Sequence record: PP216084
DNA: 64,000 nt
Source of the DNA: Escherichia phage vB_EcoS_HZ_ZJUN2
Reading direction: 5' to 3' (one strand)
The notes below the pieces were generated by a model, which ran no database searches, was not told the origin of the DNA, and worked only from the letters and a program-made list of their open reading frames with translations. Positions 587-44,367 of this stretch are shown one piece after another (position 1 is the first letter of the stretch; every line of letters begins with the position of its first letter). Position numbers and translations under genes: made by a program.

Positions 587-1078
587 TTTTATTCTAAGTC
601 TAGGAATTTCAGGCTCCTCTTGATGGACTTGATAAATAACAGGGCTATTATTTACCAGAATATAGCTTATATAAGCTGGAACATAGGATAATACAAATGG
701 ATATGGAACTTTAGCTACATAGCATTGGTATTTTCCGTTATAAATTCTAGCTGAATGCAAAACTTTAGAGGTGACAACATCATAGAACGTAGTTTTCTTC
801 CAGTTAATAAGATTTCCATCAGAATCTATAAATTGGCTACGCTTTGACCCAACTAATTGAGACAACATTGATATTCTACCCCTAATAGGATAGAGCTTGT
901 ATGGTAATTCTTTCCGTTTCTCAAATAGAATAAGTCTACGTTGAGAAAAAGTGCCAGGCAACTTCCTGTTATCTAGCACATATTTATTATACCTTGTTGT
1001 AATTACGGAATAATCACCTTCTTGCTCAATTGATACAAACGCCCGTAAAGCATATACGGGCAATTTGAAATCAAGCAC
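581..1078 (-). CDS. hypothetical protein (165 aa) between polymerase and helicase
   Basis: ORF track; 8-nt overlap with polymerase start and coupled ATGA with the downstream helicase; no recognisable motif. Confidence 0.5.
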   Translation of the reverse strand: MLDFKLPVYALRAFVSIEQEGDYSVITTRYNKYVLDNRKLPGTFSQRRLILFEKRKELPYKLYPIRGRISMLSQLVGSKRSQFIDSDGNLINWKKTTFYDVVTSKVLHSARIYNGKYQCYVAKVPYPFVLSYVPAYISYILVNNSPVIYQVHQEEPEIPRLRIKL

Positions 1079-6672: not shown

Positions 6673-7440
6673 TTATTCAGCAGCCGCAGCTTTTGCATCC
6701 AGTTTAGCACGCTTAGCGGCACCATCATAGTCCTTAGCAACCAGACCACGACGAGACAGCATAGATTTAACACCACGCTCAGACTTACCAGTTTTCTCAG
6801 CGATCTCAGCAACAGTCATGTTAACCAGATCCAGACCTTCTAACAGATCTTCACGAGTTTTAGCACTTGAAGTTTCCTGTACCGGCATAGCAGCGATACG
6901 ACCTTCACGAAGCAGGCTCAGAGCTTTACCACGGATCTGCTTAATATTGCGACCGAAGTGAGCAGCGATAGCTTCAATAGTAGCACCAGCAACAACCTGA
7001 TTAACAAAATCAGTTTCTTCATCCGGAGTGAAGGAACGAACAGCGGCAGCTTTTTCGGTTGGTTTAACAGAAGCGGTCATTTCCAGACTCAGGATCTTAC
7101 CCTGTACCTGTTTAGCACCGAACTGACCACCAGCTACAGCAGCAGCGATTTCAGCATAGGTATACTGACCAGCATGAGCGTTCAGGAAATCAACCAGCTC
7201 AGCTTCCTGCTCAGGAGTCCACGGGGATTTCTGTACTTCGTTAGCTTTCTGTACTTCAAAACCTTCTTTACGCAGTTTAGAGCCAACAGAGCGAGCAGTA
7301 ACATCTTTGCCAGTTTCAGCAGCTAGTTCAGCAGCAATAGCAGCTACTTGTTCTTGAGAGATTACAGCAACACCCAGAGCAGTGGCTTTTGCTTTCAGAG
7401 ACTCGGTTACACCTTCTACGTTCCAGTTCAGTTTAGACAT
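6673..7440 (-). CDS. putative DNA-binding protein with three internal repeats (possibly T5 D5-like)
   Basis: 255 aa, Ala-rich, three ~70-aa repeats each ending in an HTH-like segment (E/TIAA...G..K.V..K..SL); the D5 assignment is an inference. Confidence 0.55.
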   Translation of the reverse strand: MSKLNWNVEGVTESLKAKATALGVAVISQEQVAAIAAELAAETGKDVTARSVGSKLRKEGFEVQKANEVQKSPWTPEQEAELVDFLNAHAGQYTYAEIAAAVAGGQFGAKQVQGKILSLEMTASVKPTEKAAAVRSFTPDEETDFVNQVVAGATIEAIAAHFGRNIKQIRGKALSLLREGRIAAMPVQETSSAKTREDLLEGLDLVNMTVAEIAEKTGKSERGVKSMLSRRGLVAKDYDGAAKRAKLDAKAAAAE

Positions 7441-10229: not shown

Positions 10230-10876
10230 TTTATTGCTCCCTGACTTAGGAGATATTCCTCTGCCTCCTCTGGTTGAATACTGAAAAACTCAGTAGAACC
10301 GTCAAATATTGACTCTGTAAATATCTGCATACTAGAAAAGAATTGATGGGCTTTATTTTCTAGGGTATATGCAGAGCCTTCATAAGAGTATACCCCATAT
10401 ATACTCAGATCCACCAAATTAGAATCTTTTTTAATCTCTTGAAGTCTTCTATCTGGGTTTTTAGATGTTCCTATTTTTGTTCCTAGCTGCGGGCTATAAA
10501 ATAGATACAAATAGCTTGTAGCCGCACAGATAGGGCAAGATCTTCTAGCATTTTTAATCTTATCCACGCTGCTAACCCATCTATGTCCTTCTACACACTC
10601 GAACTCTGCTTGACTACGGGAATTAATATAGGGAGATATAAGTTTTATACCCCTACTGGCTAGCTGTTGGTTTATTTGCTCTACAGTAAGCTTAGCTTTA
10701 TTACTACAATGTGGGCAACCACTACCCTTTCTTATATTATTTAGGTAAGCTTTCCATTGGTGGCCCTTTAAGCATTTAAACATGGCTGGTGTTCTTATGT
10801 TAACCCATTCACTTACTATACTAAAGCCTCGTGACTCTAATTCTTTATTTATTTGTTTTGCTGTTAACTTTTTCAC
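10211..10876 (-). CDS. zinc-finger protein with C-terminal T5orf172-type (GIY-YIG-like) domain
   Basis: Repeated CxxC zinc-finger modules (GCPHCSNK, CPICA) followed by LYLFYSPQLGTKIGTSKNPDRRLQEIKK; paralog of ORF 21353-22258. Confidence 0.6.
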   Translation of the reverse strand: MKKLTAKQINKELESRGFSIVSEWVNIRTPAMFKCLKGHQWKAYLNNIRKGSGCPHCSNKAKLTVEQINQQLASRGIKLISPYINSRSQAEFECVEGHRWVSSVDKIKNARRSCPICAATSYLYLFYSPQLGTKIGTSKNPDRRLQEIKKDSNLVDLSIYGVYSYEGSAYTLENKAHQFFSSMQIFTESIFDGSTEFFSIQPEEAEEYLLSQGAIKCQEIM

Positions 10877-10881
10877 TATAC

Positions 10882-10912
10882 TTTATATACAACAAAGGAG
10901 AGCCGAAGCTCT
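10882..10912 (-). terminator. putative bidirectional hairpin terminator
   Basis: AAGGAGAGCCGAAGCTCTCCTT perfect hairpin flanked by T-runs. Confidence 0.4.
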
Positions 10913-10923
10913 CCTTTTCTTTA

Positions 10924-11214
10924 CTATTTTTTACCTACTGGCGTAGCTCTATCAAGTTCACTAGACAATGAAGTGATACGTTTTACCTTATTTACCGGGA
11001 TGAATCGGAAGCTATCATTAGTACGGCTAAATACTAGAATCTCGTCGTCTTTTGGTTGGCGAATACGCTCCTGGGCGAATCGTTTACTGAGATACTTATC
11101 AGAAAAGTCCATAGTACCTTGAAGATACGTAGTACCTTTTTGACGTAATTTCTCATAATGAAGGTAGAACTCGTTATGAGCTTCACATGCGGAGATGATT
11201 TCTTGTTTATTCAT
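10924..11214 (-). CDS. hypothetical protein (96 aa)
   Basis: ORF track. Confidence 0.5.
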   Translation of the reverse strand: MNKQEIISACEAHNEFYLHYEKLRQKGTTYLQGTMDFSDKYLSKRFAQERIRQPKDDEILVFSRTNDSFRFIPVNKVKRITSLSSELDRATPVGKK

Positions 11215-35523: not shown

Positions 35524-35746
35524 ATATTCATAAATTAGGGAACAGCGAGCCGATTACGCTGAATGCAGAATCCCAACCGGAGCGCATTGAATAGAGTCGG
35601 TGGGTTAGTTGTAAAACTAGTACACAGGGGGCGGCAATCCCGGTTAGTGGCTAGAACGTGTAAAATGAGGCGTCTGAAACCTCTCCCCTAAACTCTTCTC
35701 TAATTTATAAATAGTGGGGTGTGGAAATCACTTATGTAGTAACACT

Positions 35747-35818
35747 GCCGATCTAGTATAAACGGTATTATCAAGCCGTAACTGGTGGAAGATGTAGGTT
35801 CGAATCCTACGATCGGTA
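35747..35818 (+). tRNA. tRNA-like element (anticodon not resolved; no encoded CCA)
   Basis: Canonical T-arm GTAGG-TTCGAAT-CCTAC and 7-bp acceptor pairing GCCGATC/GATCGGT; D and anticodon arms could not be folded cleanly by eye. Confidence 0.35.
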
Positions 35819-35857
35819 AGAACTGGATAACTGGTGCTTTTAACGTAAAAGCTTCCG

Positions 35858-35930
35858 AGGTTAGTTGCGCACTGCCTAAACCACGCGGTAGTTGGTTCCA
35901 GACTAACCAACCAGTCTGCTGAATAGTTTT
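35858..35930 (+). terminator. hairpin + T-run (terminator or processing site)
   Basis: GTTGGTT-CCAGACT-AACCAAC hairpin followed by TTTTATT. Confidence 0.3.
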
Positions 35931-36319
35931 ATTACGATTTAACTATGTCCAGGCTAAAGAAGAACTTTAGAAGGTATTCTAGGTAGTGAAGTTTTTCCTC
36001 CATATCGGAGTAGTTTTTCAAGCTACCAACAAAGTGGGAAATGCTGACATGAGAGATGTCACTAATGGTGCACAATAGCACAGGTAATTCGCGATAACTC
36101 CTGTTGAGTAGCAGCAAAAGGCGGGAAGTCATGACCCCAAGCCTAACCGAGTCCTCAATATACCGCAGGACATAACCACTAAGTCACCCTGACTTAAACT
36201 GGAAAATAATAGACGTTACTGTATTTTGTCTTGAAATACTTAATGAGTGAGACTTATGACTCTCCCGGTATCGTCTGTATTTTTAAGAGTTTTTACGAGA
36301 GTTCTTAAAAATACTTAAA

Positions 36320-38295: not shown

Positions 38296-38370
38296 GGTTC
38301 TCAAGCTCATATGGTATGAGCACCCAGCTCATAACTGGAAGGTACGTAGGTTCGAATCCTCGGGGAGCCA
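38296..38370 (+). tRNA. tRNA with anticodon CAU (Met/fMet/Ile2 not distinguished)
   Basis: Acceptor GGTTCTC/GGGAGCC, D-arm GCTC-ATATGGTAT-GAGC, anticodon loop CTCATAA, TTCGAAT T-loop with imperfect T-stem, A-CCA. Confidence 0.5.
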
Positions 38371-39842: not shown

Positions 39843-39878
39843 CTAATACAGCACTGAGCAAGTTCTTTAAAATTTGAC

Positions 39879-39907
39879 TTGCTCAGTGCCTTAAAACTTG
39901 GTATAAT
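39879..39907 (+). promoter_or_regulatory. sigma70-type promoter embedded in an inverted repeat
   Basis: -35 TTGCTC / 17 bp / -10 TATAAT; the -35 lies in the 3' arm of hairpin GCACTGAGCAAG...CTTGCTCAGTGC (39851-39890). Confidence 0.5.
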
Positions 39908-40041
39908 AGTTATCTAATTTGGAAAGTTCTTTTTAAGGTAGTTCTTACTTTAGCAGAGTAAACTTTCGGCAGATGGCGGCAGCCACTTTACCGATATTCC
40001 ATAGTCAGTGCCGCAAACACTGGCTACCTTAAAGAGAATTT

Positions 40042-40303: not shown

Positions 40304-40375
40304 GCACCTTTAGCTGAGATGGATTAGCGCTTGCCTGAAGAGCTTGAAAGGTTGGATCGTTACCAACGGGGTGCA
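40304..40375 (+). tRNA. tRNA (anticodon uncertain, possibly CUG)
   Basis: Acceptor GCACCTT/GGGGTGC with A-CCA, T-stem GTTGG/CCAAC with unusual T-loop ATCGTTA. Confidence 0.4.
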
Positions 40376-40395: not shown

Positions 40396-40668
40396 ATGCA
40401 TCCTGAAAACTTCTTTATTTACTGCGCGGATAAGTCGCTGAAACGTAGAATTAACAAAGTCTATCATTATCGTGCTAGTCAACAGCCTTATGTATACGCT
40501 TTTGACGGTGATCACATTCCACTAGAACAATTATCTTGTGATTACATGATATTGAAGAACTTTGACGAGACGAAGATCTCAAGCGTTTATAATCGACAGA
40601 ATCCATTAACGTGGAAATATAAGAAGAAAAAGAAAGGCATCAAATTCTTAAAAAATATAGTTGCTTAG
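40396..40668 (+). CDS. hypothetical protein (about 90 aa)
   Basis: Track ORF 40381-40668; likely start ATG 40396 after RBS GAAGGAG. Confidence 0.45.
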   Translation: MHPENFFIYCADKSLKRRINKVYHYRASQQPYVYAFDGDHIPLEQLSCDYMILKNFDETKISSVYNRQNPLTWKYKKKKKGIKFLKNIVA

Positions 40669-40689
40669 TTTCCAAAAGTTCTGTATAAT
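40661..40689 (+). promoter_or_regulatory. sigma70-type promoter driving tRNAs
   Basis: -35 TTGCTT / 17 bp / -10 TATAAT; -35 overlaps the stop region of ORF 40396-40668. Confidence 0.5.
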
Positions 40690-40737
40690 AATTACATAAA
40701 TTGAACTGGAGAAGCAACATGATAGAACAAGATAAAT

Positions 40738-40810
40738 CGACCGTTGGCTGAATGGCTTAGGCGAAGGATTGCAAATCCTTTTTATGTGAGTTCAAATCTC
40801 ATGCGGTCGT
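40738..40810 (+). tRNA. tRNA-Cys (anticodon GCA), CCA encoded
   Basis: Acceptor CGACCGT/GCGGTCG, anticodon stem AAGGA/TCCTT with loop TTGCAAA, T-arm GTGAG-TTCAAAT-CTCAT, T-CCA. Confidence 0.65.
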
Positions 40811-40815
40811 CCAAT

Positions 40816-40956
40816 TTGCTGAAAGAATTGTTAAATCAATTCAGGCACGCGTAGGAACACTGTCTCCGTAATTGAAAGATGAGGCACGGTTTGGAGAGGT
40901 ATGCCGCTACACGCTACGGTGCTAACTCCGTCTAGGTGAAAATCCTAGTCAGCAAT
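40816..40956 (+). ncRNA. ~141-nt tRNA-like structured RNA candidate
   Basis: Perfect 7-bp terminal pairing TTGCTGA/TCAGCAA, T-arm-like hairpin CTAGG-TGAAAAT-CCTAG at the 3' side, internal hairpin GAATTG-TTAAAT-CAATTC; too long for a tRNA. Confidence 0.3.
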
Positions 40957-40965
40957 GTAAATTTA

Positions 40966-41048
40966 GGGTCGTTGGCTGAACGGTTTAAGCGCCGGACTGT
41001 TAATCCGTATCCGCAAGGATAAAGTAGGTTCAACTCCTACACGGCCCG
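40966..41048 (+). tRNA. class II (long variable arm) tRNA with anticodon GUU (Asn-type anticodon on a Ser/Tyr-type body)
   Basis: Acceptor GGGTCGT/ACGGCCC, Ser-like D-arm TG-GCT-GAACGGTTTAA-AGC, anticodon stem CCGGA/TCCGT with loop CTGTTAA, variable arm ATCC-GCAA-GGAT, T-arm GTAGG-TTCAACT-CCTAC, discriminator G, CCA. Confidence 0.5.
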
Positions 41049-41078
41049 CCAAATTCACTAACAACTGAGGAAATAGAT

Positions 41079-41264
41079 ATGACAACTCGTGCAATTGCTC
41101 GACTAGAAGCTGATCGTGATAATATGATTAATAATATTAAGGTTCGTGGTAATATTATTAAGGCTCTGAAAGCTGAACTTCTTGAGGAACTTCAAGGTCA
41201 AGTAGAGCGTCGTGAAGCTCTAAAAGAGGTTGAGGAAGCTATCGAAAAACTCAAGGCTGAATAA
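41079..41264 (+). CDS. small coiled-coil hypothetical protein (61 aa)
   Basis: ORF track; RBS GAGGAAATAG. Confidence 0.45.
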   Translation: MTTRAIARLEADRDNMINNIKVRGNIIKALKAELLEELQGQVERREALKEVEEAIEKLKAE

Positions 41265-41267
41265 ATT

Positions 41268-41849
41268 ATGCACGGAATATCCTTACCCATTCCAGGGTTT
41301 GAGGAGTACTTAGTAAGTTTGGATGGGTTAGTATTTAGTATCAAATCAAACAAAATACTAACCCCAATAACCAGTAATTACGGATACTTATCTATACGTC
41401 TCCATAAAAATGGTCAACAGAGAAATACCGGTGTACATAGGATTTTAGCATGTGCATTTAAGAAATTACCAAGTCTAGACTCTGAACTAGAAGTTGACCA
41501 TATTAACACAGACATTACTTATTGGGGTCTTAATAACTTACAAGTGCTCACAAAAGAGCAGCATCTAGAAAAGACTTTAAAAGATAAAGGATTTAGTAAA
41601 CTAAACCATGATAATTGTTGTAAGGATTGTGGTAAAGCTATTTCTTTAAAAGCTGAAAAATGTCAGGAGTGCTCTTCACATAAACCAAAAGATATCTCTA
41701 TAACTAAAGAAATAATCGAGGTTACAGTAAGAGAGCTAGGCTGGTCAGGTGCAGGGAGAAAGTTAAGTTATTCAGATAATGGGTTGCGTAAAAGATACAC
41801 TTCTTTAGGAGGCAATCCTAAAGAACTTAAAAAGTTAAAGGTACTATAG
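41268..41849 (+). CDS. HNH endonuclease (193 aa)
   Basis: HNH motif LEVDHINTDITYWGLNNLQVLTKEQH with Cys cluster CCKDCGK...CQEC; stop codon lies inside the 5' acceptor stem of the following tRNA-Asp. Confidence 0.7.
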   Translation: MHGISLPIPGFEEYLVSLDGLVFSIKSNKILTPITSNYGYLSIRLHKNGQQRNTGVHRILACAFKKLPSLDSELEVDHINTDITYWGLNNLQVLTKEQHLEKTLKDKGFSKLNHDNCCKDCGKAISLKAEKCQECSSHKPKDISITKEIIEVTVRELGWSGAGRKLSYSDNGLRKRYTSLGGNPKELKKLKVL

Positions 41850-42625: not shown

Positions 42626-42634
42626 CCAAACAAT

Positions 42635-42707
42635 TGCGGGTGGGAGGCATAGAGTTCTTCTTAGTCTCATAAGCTAAGTAAGTCCAGGGCAGTACTGGAA
42701 CCCGCTA
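42635..42707 (+). tRNA. tRNA with anticodon CAU and non-canonical T-loop
   Basis: Correct cloverleaf spacing; anticodon stem TTAGT/GCTAA with loop CTCATAA; T-stem TCCAG/CTGGA but T-loop GGCAGTA instead of TTCRANY; A-CCA. Confidence 0.45.
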
Positions 42708-42727
42708 CCAATTTCAAGAAAAACTCA

Positions 42728-42756
42728 TTTGCTTAATGCTTAATTTCTTGTTATAA
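42728..42756 (+). promoter_or_regulatory. sigma70-type promoter driving an untranslated RNA
   Basis: -35 TTGCTT / 17 bp / -10 TATAAT; downstream ~320 nt lack any ORF of 60 aa or more before tRNA-Ala. Confidence 0.5.
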
Positions 42757-42764
42757 TATTTATA

Positions 42765-43089
42765 TAAATTGATGCGAAAATAGCTGCCTAGATACCAGGT
42801 GTATGACGTCTACACTAGCAGAGCTACCGAAAAAGAGATCCTCAGGATAAACGTCGTAGCAAAATTAGTCTGGTATCCATCAATTTAGTTCACTAAGGTA
42901 TTAGCTCGACCTAGGACTGGCTGCCAAAAAGCACGATCCCTACGACTTGGGAGAAGTTCTAGATTAGTCCACTAGATTCAGCGGCAACTGAATAGTGTAT
43001 TGGGTTTGCGAGATGACGCGGTTCCTTCCGCTCGAAGCGAAGGTGCTGTAGTTACGCCGAGCTAATAGCCTTAGTAAACTAAAGAATTT
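42765..43089 (+). ncRNA. candidate structured non-coding RNA (~320 nt) co-transcribed with tRNAs
   Basis: Promoter-proximal, no plausible ORF, several complementary segments (e.g. GATACCAGG / CTGGTATC; AGCTGCCTAG / CTAGGACTGGCTGCC). Confidence 0.3.
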
Positions 43090-44000: not shown

Positions 44001-44008
44001 AAATTCTT

Positions 44009-44106
44009 GGAATATGCCGGAATTGGTAGACGGGACTGCCGAATAGGTTTACTAGGAACATCCACTCCTAGAAATATACCTTAAAAGCGGTTGAGTTAAA
44101 TGGTCT
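44009..44106 (+). ncRNA. irregular tRNA-like element (Leu-like D-arm plus T-arm, about 45 nt too long)
   Basis: D-arm CCGG-AATTGGTAGA-CGGG resembling bacterial tRNA-Leu, T-arm GAAGG-TTCAAGT-CCTTC, acceptor-like pairing GGAATA/TATTCC, but extra hairpins lie between D- and T-arms. Confidence 0.3.
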
Positions 44107-44367
44107 AACTCATGAAGGTTCAAGTCCTTCTATTCCTTGATACATCAATGGCTCAAAGTGTAACGGTGCTATTTGATGCTCTTGGCAAGACTTCCCCGAC
44201 ATGCGTTCGGGAGTAAGCTGCTAAGACTAGAATAGAAGAGTTTCTGAGAGCCGCCACAATTGAAAATTCGTACTCGTCTTGAGCTGCGTGCAATAGGAGA
44301 TAACTTGATTAGTATTCTAGAACATGCTAATTGAGGAAGGTTTCGCTAACCCTGCGAGTTTTCAATT

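What the first reader, a model, noticed from the sequence alone, without database searches (positions are those of the whole stretch)
40816..40956. 141-nt element closed by a perfect acceptor-like stem with a T-arm-like hairpin
TTGCTGA at 40816 pairs perfectly with TCAGCAA at 40949, and a T-arm-like hairpin (CTAGG-TGAAAAT-CCTAG) sits exactly where a tRNA T-arm would, but the element is about twice tRNA length and the T-loop is non-canonical. Candidate tRNA-like ncRNA, interrupted tRNA or processing scaffold between tRNA-Cys and the next tRNA.
Basis: seen in the sequence. Interest (0 to 1): 0.5.

Follow-up and report, generated by a model that had tools for sequence, protein, structure and literature searches.

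The report
Conserved tRNA-shaped phage RNA gene
Between two tRNA genes of this T5-like phage lies an unannotated 141-base gene for a folded, tRNA-shaped RNA that is conserved, with matching base-pair changes, in over 200 phage genomes from two unrelated families; it adds a member to the old class of phage "small stable RNAs", whose job is still unknown.

Summary
TTGCTGA (40816-40822) pairs perfectly with TCAGCAA (40949-40955). A 5-bp/7-nt hairpin (40932-40948) abuts the 3' strand exactly as a tRNA T-arm would. Shuffled spacers reproduce both features together about 1 time in 100,000.

The window is a T5-like phage, identical here to Escherichia phage HildyBeyeler. The element sits between tRNA-Cys and tRNA-Asn, downstream of a T5-type early promoter.

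It occurs in about 219 phage records in three lineages: Tequintavirus, Epseptimavirus/Sugarlandvirus, and the unrelated Klebsiella myoviruses of genus Mydovirus. It always lies 2-3 nt after a tRNA's CCA end, and no record annotates it as an RNA.

Six helices form a cloverleaf. The anticodon arm is replaced by an 11-bp helix ending in a three-way junction. 99.4% of pair cells are paired, 15 pairs show compensatory double changes, and no substitution breaks a pair.

It is not a tRNA, an intron-bearing tRNA, a tmRNA, a coding region or any Rfam family.

Best reading: a stable tRNA-mimic ncRNA cut out by the tRNA-processing machinery, analogous to T5 rna2/RNAIII and T4 RNAC/RNAD. Its trans function, possibly a decoy, is inferred only. 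It is a new member of a known kind.

The parts
40661..40689 (+). T5-type early promoter (TTGCTT, 17 nt, TATAAT) that would drive the tRNA-Cys / element / tRNA-Asn transcript
   Evidence: Read from the sequence. By the BLAST mapping, this position falls inside the annotated 'putative early promoter T5P18' of T5 AY587007. The consensus scan missed it because TTGCTT matches only 3 of 6 positions of TTGACA. That TTGCTT is the -35 hexamer of classical T5 early promoters is my own knowledge.
40738..40813 (+). tRNA-Cys(GCA) with encoded CCA. It ends 2 nt before the element.
   Evidence: ARAGORN. Rfam tRNA 48.5 bits.
40816..40822 (+). P1 5' strand, the acceptor-like stem (positions 1-7)
   Evidence: 7 bp pairing with 40949-40955. 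4 of the 7 pairs show double compensatory changes and 100% of cells are paired.
40823..40824 (+). Invariant AA linker, in the position of tRNA nucleotides 8-9
   Evidence: Positions 8 and 9 are A in every row of the structure-fitted alignment A4. They are invariant in the A/B alignment A2. The plain MAFFT alignment A1 lists only A9 as invariant because it misaligns the type C 5' end.
40825..40842 (+). P2, a hairpin in the D-arm position (GAATTG-TTAAAT-CAATTC). It has 5-6 bp and its loop is variable.
   Evidence: 5 of 6 pairs have compensatory changes, including independent changes within lineage B.
40844..40855 (+). P3 5' strand (GGCAC-G-CGUAGG), a long helix in the anticodon-arm position with G34 bulged
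   Evidence: 11 pairs with 40912-40923. Two adjacent pairs covary (C-G to G-C, A-U to U-G). It is the MFE helix in the Mydovirus copy, and RNAalifold recovers it on both alignments.
40862..40885 (+). P4, a variable hairpin on the three-way junction (GUCUC - 14-nt loop - GAGGC)
   Evidence: 3 of 5 pairs covary. Stem and loop length differ in lineage C.
40887..40906 (+). P5 hairpin (CGGU / GCCG) with a 12-nt purine-rich loop (UUGGAGAGGUAU)
   Evidence: All 4 pairs are invariant, so the helix is predicted by energy only. Loop bases 79-81 may pair with 111-113 as a possible pseudoknot, with one covarying pair, 80/112.
40907..40923 (+). Invariant junction strand CUACA, then C97, bulged G98 and the P3 3' strand CUACGGUGCU
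   Evidence: Positions 88-104 are invariant across all three lineages. For the pairing.
40924..40931 (+). 8-nt region in the variable-loop position (AACUCCGU)
   Evidence: Alignment.
40932..40948 (+). P6, the T-arm-like hairpin CUAGG-UGAAAAU-CCUAG
   Evidence: The 5-bp stem has one compensatory A-U to U-A change. The 7-nt loop is invariant in all lineages. U at loop position 1 and A at position 5 fit the generic T-loop motif, which is an inference from my own knowledge.
40949..40956 (+). P1 3' strand plus one discriminator-like U. No CCA is encoded.
40966..41051 (+). tRNA-Asn(GUU), 9 nt downstream of the element
   Evidence: ARAGORN. Rfam 54.7 bits.

Best explanation
The element is a gene for a small, highly structured, tRNA-shaped non-coding RNA.

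Transcription (inferred). It is transcribed on the + strand from a T5-type early promoter, as part of a tRNA-Cys / element / tRNA-Asn precursor.

Processing (inferred from geometry). The RNA presents the same 12-bp acceptor/T-arm stack as a tRNA: a 7-bp closing stem stacked on a 5-bp hairpin with a 7-nt T-type loop. RNase P would therefore cut its 5' end. The RNase P cut at the next tRNA plus 3' trimming would release a stable species of about 141 nt. The host enzyme may then add CCA.

Structure (shown). The anticodon position holds an 11-bp helix ending in a three-way junction. The junction strands, the P5 stem and the T-loop are invariant, while all other helices drift with compensation.

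Function (inferred, low certainty). The RNA most likely acts in trans as a tRNA mimic. The acceptor/T half would give it tRNA-like processing, stability and access to tRNA-binding proteins. The invariant distal module would be the functional part, for example as a decoy or adaptor for a host or phage tRNA-binding factor. This would fit the phage-host conflict over tRNAs in which T5 tRNA arrays already take part.
For: Real structured RNA:
- Six helices, 99.4% of 492 pair cells paired, 15 pairs with double compensatory changes. Slid controls give 25-44% paired and 0-2 such pairs.
- RNAalifold gives the same fold on the model-fitted alignment. On a plain MAFFT alignment it recovers P1 (5 of 7 bp), P2 (5 of 6 bp), P3, P5 and P6, but a different pairing in the P4 region.
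- In 13 variant copies every substitution at a paired position keeps the pair. Five different one-sided changes create or resolve a G-U pair, which fixes the + strand as the RNA strand.

Selection across families:
- About 219 phage records in three lineages, including Vequintavirinae/Mydovirus at 76% identity. There it is the best match between the two tRNA clusters.
- It lies 2-3 nt after a tRNA CCA end in every copy examined, next to different tRNAs.

tRNA-like processing geometry:
- P1 (7 bp) and P6 (5 bp, 7-nt loop) never change length, while P2 and P4 do.
- The promoter lies upstream and no terminator lies between the genes.

Precedent:
- T5 record AY692264 annotates six misc_RNAs in the same cluster. 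Four are present in this window.
- T5 rna2 folds into the same cloverleaf with a long arm. RNAIII likewise lacks CCA and abuts a tRNA.
- T4 RNAC/RNAD are detected stable RNAs from the tRNA region (PMC3014915, PMC9697503).

Context for a decoy role: T5 tRNAs neutralise tRNA-cleaving defences (PMC11464382).
Against: - No expression or end-mapping data were available, so existence as a discrete RNA is inferred.
- There are effectively only three lineages. Per-column covariation is therefore weak, as many spurious covarying column pairs show, and the support rests at helix level.
- P5 and most of P3 are invariant, so those parts rest on energy alone.
- In lineages A and B the single-sequence MFE prefers a different inner pairing. 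It scores -41.1 kcal/mol, against -39.9 for the best fold forced to contain P3 and -37.1 for the exact consensus structure.
- The T-loop lacks U55/C56 and the D-position loop lacks GG, so RNase P S-domain recognition may be weaker than for a tRNA.
- The element is dispensable. T5 itself lacks it and one contig carries a truncated copy.
- Nothing in the data identifies a partner, so the decoy/adaptor role is speculation.
Confidence: 0.55

Rival explanations
1. Cis-acting processing or insulator module. The folded element only serves to present the 3' end of the upstream tRNA and the 5' end of the downstream tRNA correctly to RNase P, RNase E and exonucleases. Alternatively it protects the precursor. 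It would then be degraded, with no function of its own.
For: It always lies 2-3 nt after a tRNA CCA end and inside tRNA arrays. The 12-bp acceptor/T stack is what processing enzymes measure, and its length is fixed.
Against: Many T5-like phages, T5 included, mature tRNA-Cys and tRNA-Asn with an ORF in this spacer. Other tRNA pairs in the window are separated by only 6-9 nt. The neighbouring tRNAs differ between lineages. The strongest conservation lies in the distal junction, the P5 stem and the T-loop, which a mere spacer would not need.
Confidence: 0.15
2. Trans-acting base-pairing or sponge RNA. An invariant single-stranded stretch pairs with an RNA target. Candidates are the junction strand CUACA plus neighbours, or the Shine-Dalgarno-like GGAGAGG/GGGAGG loop of P5. 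The tRNA-like frame would only provide stability.
For: 17 consecutive invariant bases (positions 88-104) and a purine-rich, SD-like 12-nt loop are kept in all lineages.
Against: Most of the invariant stretch is paired in the supported fold (P5 3' strand, P3 3' strand). No target was identified. A 9-nt complementarity to 16S rRNA that I noticed by eye is at chance level by my estimate. The complementarity of GGUUUGG to the CCAAAUU tRNA trailers is lost in lineage C.
Confidence: 0.1
3. Self-contained ligand-binding or catalytic RNA (aptamer or ribozyme) carried on a tRNA-like frame.
For: An invariant three-way junction with two conserved bulged G residues, an invariant T-loop and a possible loop-to-variable-region pseudoknot make up the kind of core seen in aptamers.
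Against: No Rfam riboswitch or ribozyme family matches even at E<=10. No consistent downstream gene exists that it could regulate. Nothing suggests self-cleavage.
Confidence: 0.07
4. Decayed tRNA, or a relic of recombination or homing-endonuclease traffic, with no present function.
For: The T-arm sequence GGUGAAAAUCC matches 8 of 11 positions of the canonical GGUUCGAAUCC, so descent from a tRNA is plausible. The locus is a hot spot: a T5orf172 ORF in T5 and a truncated copy in L017. The element is dispensable.
Against: Purifying selection is evident. Of 14-17 differences between lineages A and B, none breaks a pair and 8-10 form compensatory doubles. The element is retained at 76% identity in an unrelated phage family while its flanks are unrelated. 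117 records are at least 99% identical.
Confidence: 0.05

Closest known systems
Bacteriophage T5 small stable RNAs of the tRNA gene cluster (misc_RNA rna2, RNA1, RNAI, RNAIII, RNAIV, RNA2H in GenBank AY692264)
   Same: Same genome region and strand, embedded between tRNA genes and closed by a terminal helix that starts within 0-4 nt of a neighbouring RNA. rna2 (125 nt) folds as acceptor stem, D-position hairpin, long arm and T-arm, which is the same architecture. RNAIII also lacks an encoded CCA and ends in ...CAAU like the element. Four of these RNAs are in this window: 42899-43070, 44006-44149, 44150-44256 and 44261-44366.
   Different: No sequence or covariance-model similarity to any of them. 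T5 itself lacks the element. rna2 and RNA1 have canonical GGUUCGAAUCC/GGUUCAACUCC T-arms, whereas the element has UGAAAAU. The element also occurs outside Demerecviridae.
Bacteriophage T4 species 1 and species 2 RNAs (rnaC, rnaD)
   Same: Small stable RNAs (139 and 119 nt) encoded at the end of the tRNA cluster on the tRNA strand. Their function is unknown after decades (PMC3014915; PMC9697503). rnaC is nearly the same size and carries a T-arm next to its closing stem.
   Different: No sequence similarity. The rnaC T-arm is canonical. They belong to a different phage family.
Canonical tRNA (Rfam RF00005)
   Same: 7-bp acceptor stem, 2-nt and 1-nt linkers, four-way cloverleaf junction, 5-bp T stem with a 7-nt loop abutting the acceptor 3' strand, and one discriminator base.
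   Different: No anticodon stem-loop: an 11-bp helix and three-way junction take its place. No G18G19, no T-Psi-C, A8 instead of U8, no encoded CCA. No score against the tRNA model or ARAGORN.
Viral and cellular tRNA mimics processed by tRNA enzymes (MHV68 vtRNAs, mascRNA, the tRNA-like domain of bacterial Y RNA YrlA). Comparison from my own knowledge.
   Same: Non-aminoacylated RNAs that borrow the acceptor/T-arm shape to be cut by RNase P/Z, sometimes receive CCA, and are stable.
   Different: No homology. Rfam Y-RNA and other families give no hit. YrlA has its ends at the opposite pole. Processing of the present element is untested.

Membership tests
tRNA (RF00005) | Score at or above the Rfam gathering threshold (29 bits), or a call by a tRNA finder | tested here: not met
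   No tRNA hit on 40816-40956 even at E<=10. ARAGORN is negative, including with introns up to 120 nt and relaxed thresholds.
tRNA (RF00005) | Cloverleaf with a 7-bp acceptor stem and a 5-bp T stem with 7-nt loop abutting it | tested here: met
   P1 and P6 are supported by covariation and have fixed lengths.
tRNA (RF00005) | 5-bp anticodon stem with a 7-nt anticodon loop | tested here: not met
   An 11-bp helix P3 ending in a three-way junction (P4, P5) takes its place.
tRNA (RF00005) | Conserved tertiary nucleotides (U8, G18G19, T54-Psi55-C56) | tested here: not met
   A8. The D-position loop is UUAAAU and variable. The T-loop is UGAAAAU.
tRNA (RF00005) | 3' CCA, encoded in this phage's tRNAs | tested here: not met
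   21 of the 22 Rfam tRNA matches in the window are followed by an encoded CCA. The element ends in ...CAGCAAU GUA. Post-transcriptional addition cannot be tested here.
Intron-containing (interrupted) tRNA | Removing an insert restores a canonical anticodon arm, and a group I or BHB intron is recognisable | tested here: not met
   ARAGORN -i0,120 finds nothing. No group I intron or other Rfam hit. The inner 57 nt are conserved as structure, not as an intron.
tmRNA | tRNA-Ala-like ends plus a tag reading frame | tested here: not met
   ARAGORN -m is negative. No Rfam hit.
Phage tRNA-cluster small stable RNAs (T5 RNAI/III/IV/1/2/2H, T4 RNAC/RNAD). This is a class defined by context, not by homology. 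| Encoded within a phage tRNA gene array on the tRNA strand, non-coding, with no promoter or terminator of its own | tested here: met
   The same holds in the Mydovirus and lineage B copies.
Phage tRNA-cluster small stable RNAs | 5' and 3' ends paired in a terminal helix next to tRNA processing sites | tested here: met
   P1. Compare the folds of the T5 and T4 RNAs.
Phage tRNA-cluster small stable RNAs | Accumulates as a discrete stable RNA in infected cells | not testable with these tools
   No RNA data were accessible. Literature searches found none for this element.
Phage tRNA-cluster small stable RNAs | Sequence homology to a described member | tested here: not met
   BLAST of the six T5 RNAs against the window gives no match to the element. 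Covariance model R1 finds nothing in the T5 or T4 tRNA regions.
Protein-coding gene | An open reading frame with coding-type conservation | tested here: not met
   No ORF of 20 aa or more lies within the element. A 12-codon AUG..UGA frame exists, but 3 of its 4 A-versus-C differences are non-synonymous, its start codon is lost in phage Boggle, and its third positions are invariant.

The most novel reading that the evidence does not exclude
The element is a horizontally exchanged anti-defence RNA. In this reading a tRNA-shaped decoy uses its acceptor/T-arm half to be processed and recognised like a tRNA. Its invariant three-way-junction module would trap or inhibit a host tRNA-targeting immune effector or tRNA-binding enzyme. 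It would be the first RNA, as opposed to a replacement tRNA, by which phage tRNA clusters counter tRNA-directed defences. It would also give a first function to the class of phage small stable RNAs that includes T4 RNAC/RNAD.
Probability: 0.15. Interest if true: 0.8.

Novelty: new member of a known kind. Interest (0 to 1): 0.5.

Why it matters
Phage tRNA clusters are now understood as part of the arms race with tRNA-cleaving bacterial defences (PMC11464382). The non-tRNA RNAs embedded in these clusters were first seen in T4 and T5 decades ago (the dating is from my own knowledge), and the roles of the T4 pair are still unknown (PMC3014915).

This element is a clean new family of that kind. It is unannotated in more than 200 genomes and absent from Rfam. 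It has a covariation-backed structure and an invariant core, and it is shared by two unrelated phage families that infect enterobacteria.

It is easy to test, because HildyBeyeler grows on E. coli K-12. It is naturally absent or truncated in close relatives, which gives ready-made comparison strains. At the least it deserves annotation and an Rfam model, and it prevents the spurious 'hypothetical protein' and 'DNA ligase' calls now laid over it.

Tried and rejected
- Rfam at gathering and at E<=10 on the A and C copies gave only flanking tRNAs and a meaningless 16-bit HIV-1 SL3 hit on the minus strand.
- ARAGORN with introns, relaxed scores, mitochondrial and tmRNA modes found nothing.
- Coding was rejected: there is no ORF, and the mini-frame shows non-coding conservation.
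- Homology to the T5 misc_RNAs or T4 rnaC/rnaD was absent.
- A host or prophage origin was not found: no match in 5,426 E. coli genomes.
- The 43 exact 17-mer hits in GTDB genomes lie in scattered, mostly high-GC soil and water taxa and number about what chance predicts. None matches the whole element.
- Three viral-contig pattern scans and one metagenome scan found no fourth lineage. Re-searching the phage collection from the Mydovirus copy found none either.
- The MFE inner helix GGCA(29-32)/UGCC(87-90) was rejected because it is broken in lineage C and in phage Boggle.
- The alternative pairing 71-74/113-116 and the pseudoknot 78-81/111-114 each fit the variation, but with only one informative change. 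They are left open.
- A by-eye resemblance of the lineage C P4 hairpin to 5S rRNA helix IV/V is not shared by lineages A and B and gets no 5S Rfam hit, so it was dropped.
- The idea that the element and T5 rna2 are mutually exclusive substitutes was rejected. rna2 is in 425 records, including many that carry the element.
- Literature searches for T5 stable RNAs or this element found nothing specific.

Full report
**1. What is there**

The window is a T5-like phage. Positions 40700-41056 are 100% identical to Escherichia phage HildyBeyeler (Tequintavirus).

ARAGORN and Rfam find a 10-kb array of 21-22 tRNA genes on the + strand. The finding lies in the 152-nt spacer between tRNA-Cys (40738-40813) and tRNA-Asn (40966-41051).

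- TTGCTGA at 40816-40822 pairs perfectly with TCAGCAA at 40949-40955.
- CTAGG-TGAAAAT-CCTAG at 40932-40948 runs directly into the 3' strand.

This combination is not a chance feature. In 200,000 shuffles of the spacer, a terminal 7-bp stem appeared in 1.25% and the stem plus the abutting 5-bp/7-nt hairpin in 0.001%. The single-sequence fold is only mildly better than shuffles (z = -2.0). The real evidence is therefore comparative.

**2. Relatives**

BLAST finds the 141 nt in 219 phage records. The flanking tRNAs are found in 377 records. Reading the copies shows three lineages:
- **Lineage A:** Tequintavirus and some Epseptimavirus, between tRNA-Cys and tRNA-Asn, at least 95% identical.
- **Lineage B:** Yersinia phage phiR2-01 and Klebsiella Sugarlandvirus-type phages, directly after tRNA-Asn, 88-90% identical.
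- **Lineage C:** six Klebsiella myoviruses of genus Mydovirus (Vequintavirinae), a different family. Here the copy is 136 nt, lies between two tRNA-Ser genes and is 76% identical.

In the copies whose flanks were read, the element starts 2-3 nt after the CCA of a tRNA. Between the T5-like and Mydovirus tRNA clusters it is the best DNA match. The other matches are ordinary tRNA-to-tRNA similarity.

No fourth lineage turned up in:
- IMG/VR;
- JGI metagenomes;
- GTDB genomes, where the 17-mer hits are at chance level and none matches the element;
- E. coli genomes;
- a re-search of the phage collection starting from lineage C.

No listed record annotates it as an RNA. A few lay a 'hypothetical protein' or, in BIS47, a 'DNA ligase' CDS over it.

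**3. Structure**

Comparing the lineages by eye and then formally gives six helices (numbering: 1 = 40816).

| Helix | Positions | Notes |
|---|---|---|
| P1 | 1-7 / 134-140 | Acceptor-like stem |
| P2 | 10-15 / 22-27 | Hairpin in the D-arm position |
| P3 | 29-33, 35-39, 40 / 97, 99-103, 104-108 | G34 and G98 bulged |
| P4 | 47-51 / 66-70 | Variable hairpin |
| P5 | 72-75 / 88-91 | Invariant stem |
| P6 | 117-121 / 129-133 | T-arm-like hairpin |

A covariance model built on lineages A and B aligned lineage C at 102-103 bits. On that alignment:
- 99.4% of 492 pair cells are standard pairs;
- 15 of 38 pairs show changes on both sides;
- sliding the partners by 1-3 columns drops this to 25-44% paired and 0-2 such pairs.

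The caveat is that the alignment was fitted to the model and the structure was derived from these sequences. Three independent checks address this:
- RNAalifold recovers P1 (5 of 7 bp), P2 (5 of 6 bp), P3, P5 and P6 on the plain MAFFT alignment, though it draws a different pairing in the P4 region.
- RNAalifold recovers the whole fold on the fitted alignment.
- P3 is the MFE helix in the Mydovirus copy on its own.

In 13 variant copies every substitution at a paired position preserves pairing. A versus B shows 14-17 differences, none of which breaks a pair. Five different one-sided changes (A7G, A24G, U48C, G69A, C102U) create or resolve a G-U pair, which is possible only if the + strand is the RNA.

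With only three deep lineages, isolated covarying columns are common by chance. The support is therefore at the level of helices:
- strong for P1, P2 and P4;
- good for P3 (two adjacent double changes plus nine invariant pairs);
- one double change for P6;
- energy only for P5.

In lineages A and B the single-sequence MFE prefers another inner helix (29-32/87-90). It scores -41.1 kcal/mol, against -39.9 for the best fold forced to contain P3 and -37.1 for the exact consensus structure. That alternative is broken in lineage C and in phage Boggle.

A loop-to-variable-region contact (79-81 with 111-113, where A80-U112 becomes G-C) is possible but rests on one event.

**4. Anatomy**

The result is a true cloverleaf, in this order:
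1. 7-bp acceptor-like stem.
2. Invariant AA linker, in the place of tRNA nucleotides 8-9.
3. Hairpin in the D-arm position.
4. One A.
5. A long arm in the anticodon position.
6. An 8-nt variable region.
7. A 5-bp stem with a 7-nt loop in the T-arm position.
8. The acceptor 3' strand.
9. One discriminator-like U.

P1 and P6 never change length, whereas P2 and P4 do. Their sum, 12 bp, is the distance that RNase P, the CCA-adding enzyme and related tRNA enzymes measure (established knowledge).

The parts that are invariant across all lineages are:
- P3b (CGUAG/CUACG);
- the P5 stem;
- the junction strand CUACAC-G;
- most of the variable region;
- the whole T-loop UGAAAAU.

So the frame drifts with compensation while a distal three-way junction and the T-loop are frozen.

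**5. What it is not**

- **Not a tRNA.** No hit to RF00005 at E<=10 and no ARAGORN call, even with 120-nt introns or relaxed scores. There is no anticodon loop, G18G19 or T-Psi-C. No CCA is encoded, although 21 of the 22 Rfam tRNA matches in the window are followed by CCA, usually within the trailer CCAAAUU.
- **Not a tmRNA**.
- **Not any Rfam family**.
- **Not coding.** No ORF lies within it. The only mini-frame (12 codons) shows nucleotide-level rather than protein-level conservation and loses its AUG in one phage.
- **Not a terminator**.

**6. Context and precedent**

A T5-type early promoter lies upstream of tRNA-Cys: TTGCTT at 40661-40666, 17 nt, then TATAAT at 40684-40689. By the BLAST mapping, this falls inside the annotated 'putative early promoter T5P18' of T5.

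The GenBank record of T5 st0 annotates six misc_RNAs in the tRNA cluster. Four have homologues in this window:

| T5 RNA | Window coordinates |
|---|---|
| RNA2H | 42899-43070 |
| RNA1 | 44006-44149 |
| RNAI | 44150-44256 |
| RNAIII | 44261-44366 |

None resembles the element in sequence. All six are predicted to fold with their ends paired in a terminal helix. rna2 folds as the same cloverleaf with a long arm. RNAIII lacks CCA and ends in ...CAAU, as the element does.

T4 has the analogous RNAC and RNAD. These are detected stable RNAs whose roles are still unknown (PMC3014915, PMC9697503).

T5 itself lacks the element. Its Cys-Asn spacer holds a 165-aa ORF with a T5orf172/MUG113 domain, which I take to be GIY-YIG-related (own knowledge). 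About 12 nt resembling the element's 5' end remain after tRNA-Cys.

One IMG/VR contig (L017) carries a truncated copy. Its first 55 nt are replaced by a promoter plus mini-ORF cassette. The element is thus an accessory gene in a recombination hot spot that also holds an HNH/NUMOD4 gene at 41268-41849.

**7. How it most likely works**

- **Shown:** it is a conserved, structured + strand RNA gene with tRNA geometry, co-oriented with the flanking tRNAs. There is no predicted terminator before tRNA-Asn and no room for a separate promoter between the genes.
- **Inferred from geometry and precedent:** it is excised by RNase P at its 5' end. Its 3' end is made by RNase P cleavage of tRNA-Asn plus trimming. 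It accumulates as a stable ~141-nt RNA, and CCA may be added.
- **Inferred with low certainty:** it acts in trans as a tRNA mimic whose invariant junction/T-loop module binds a partner. A decoy for a tRNA-directed host factor fits the known role of T5 tRNAs against PARIS and retron Eco7 (PMC11464382), the accessory and patchy distribution, and the transfer between unrelated phages sharing Klebsiella/enterobacterial hosts.

The rival explanations are a pure processing scaffold, a base-pairing sRNA or SD-like sponge, an aptamer or ribozyme, and a functionless relic. They are listed separately with their evidence.

**8. Verdict**

The 'tRNA-like ncRNA' reading is supported, 'interrupted tRNA' is rejected, and 'processing scaffold' is unlikely but open.

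It is a new, well-supported member of a known kind: phage tRNA-cluster small stable RNAs. It has not been described in Rfam, in any record annotation I saw, or in the searchable literature.

Interest is moderate at 0.5. It is a solid new RNA family with an intriguing invariant core and cross-family spread, but no function is demonstrated and the class itself is old.

Noticed in passing
window 42899-43070, 44006-44149, 44150-44256, 44261-44366: Homologues (92.5-99% identity) of four T5 misc_RNAs (RNA2H, RNA1, RNAI, RNAIII) are present. None has an Rfam family, and they are not annotated in the T5 record AY587007. RNA1, RNAI, RNAIII and tRNA-His are packed head to tail with 0-4 nt between them.
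   Followed up: partly
L001 (T5 AY692264) 6963-7087, minus strand: T5 'rna2' (125 nt) folds as a cloverleaf with a canonical T-arm and a long arm in the anticodon position. It is found in 425 phage records, with matches at 76-77% identity in Pectobacterium phage My1 and an Enterobacter phage (annotated there as tRNA-Arg) and a partial match (half the query, 86%) in Acinetobacter phage 133. It is absent from this window.
   Followed up: partly
L002 (T5 wt AY587007), reverse-complement coordinates 10535-11050: In T5 the Cys-Asn spacer holds a 165-aa ORF with T5orf172/MUG113 domains (E = 2e-12 and 5e-16) in place of the element. 'AATTACTAAAGG' right after tRNA-Cys looks like a remnant of the element's 5' end.
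   Followed up: partly
L017 (IMGVR_UViG_2706796127_000001) 924-1055, minus strand: This is a natural truncated copy. Element positions 56-139 are intact, but the first 55 nt are replaced by a TTGCTT/TATAAT promoter, a Shine-Dalgarno sequence and a 12-codon ORF that stops inside the element.
   Followed up: partly
window 40661-40751: A T5-type early promoter is followed by GGAG and a 10-codon ORF (ATG at 40719, MIEQDKSTVG*) that runs into the 5' end of tRNA-Cys. The same promoter-plus-mini-ORF cassette design appears in L017.
   Followed up: no
window 40304-40375 and 38296-38370: Two weak Rfam tRNA matches (32.6 and 38.2 bits) are not called by ARAGORN. The first aligns with the position of tRNA-Phe(GAA) in T5 and has a degenerate T-arm. 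These may be decaying or non-canonical tRNAs.
   Followed up: no
window, 3' ends of the tRNA genes between 36391 and 45915: 21 of the 22 Rfam tRNA matches are followed by an encoded CCA, usually within the trailer CCAAAUU/CCAAUUU. The exception is the first gene, the unusual tRNA-Ser(ACU) at 35746-35819. The trailer may be a shared processing signal.
   Followed up: no
window 41268-41849 and 41079-41264: A NUMOD4/HNH homing-endonuclease-like ORF (193 aa) and a DUF7337 ORF (61 aa, E = 1e-29) lie just downstream of tRNA-Asn. Together with the T5orf172 ORF in T5, this marks the spacer region as a site of mobile-gene traffic.
   Followed up: partly
window 35923-36319, 39843-40041, 42629-42898: These stretches of 200-400 nt inside the tRNA cluster have no tRNA, no known T5 RNA and no + strand ORF of 35 aa or more. 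They could hold further unannotated RNAs or promoters.
   Followed up: no
NC_048656.1 / KY652726.1 (Klebsiella phage BIS47) 44457-44592: The record annotates a 'DNA ligase' feature over the Mydovirus copy of the element inside the tRNA array. This is probably a mis-annotation.
   Followed up: no
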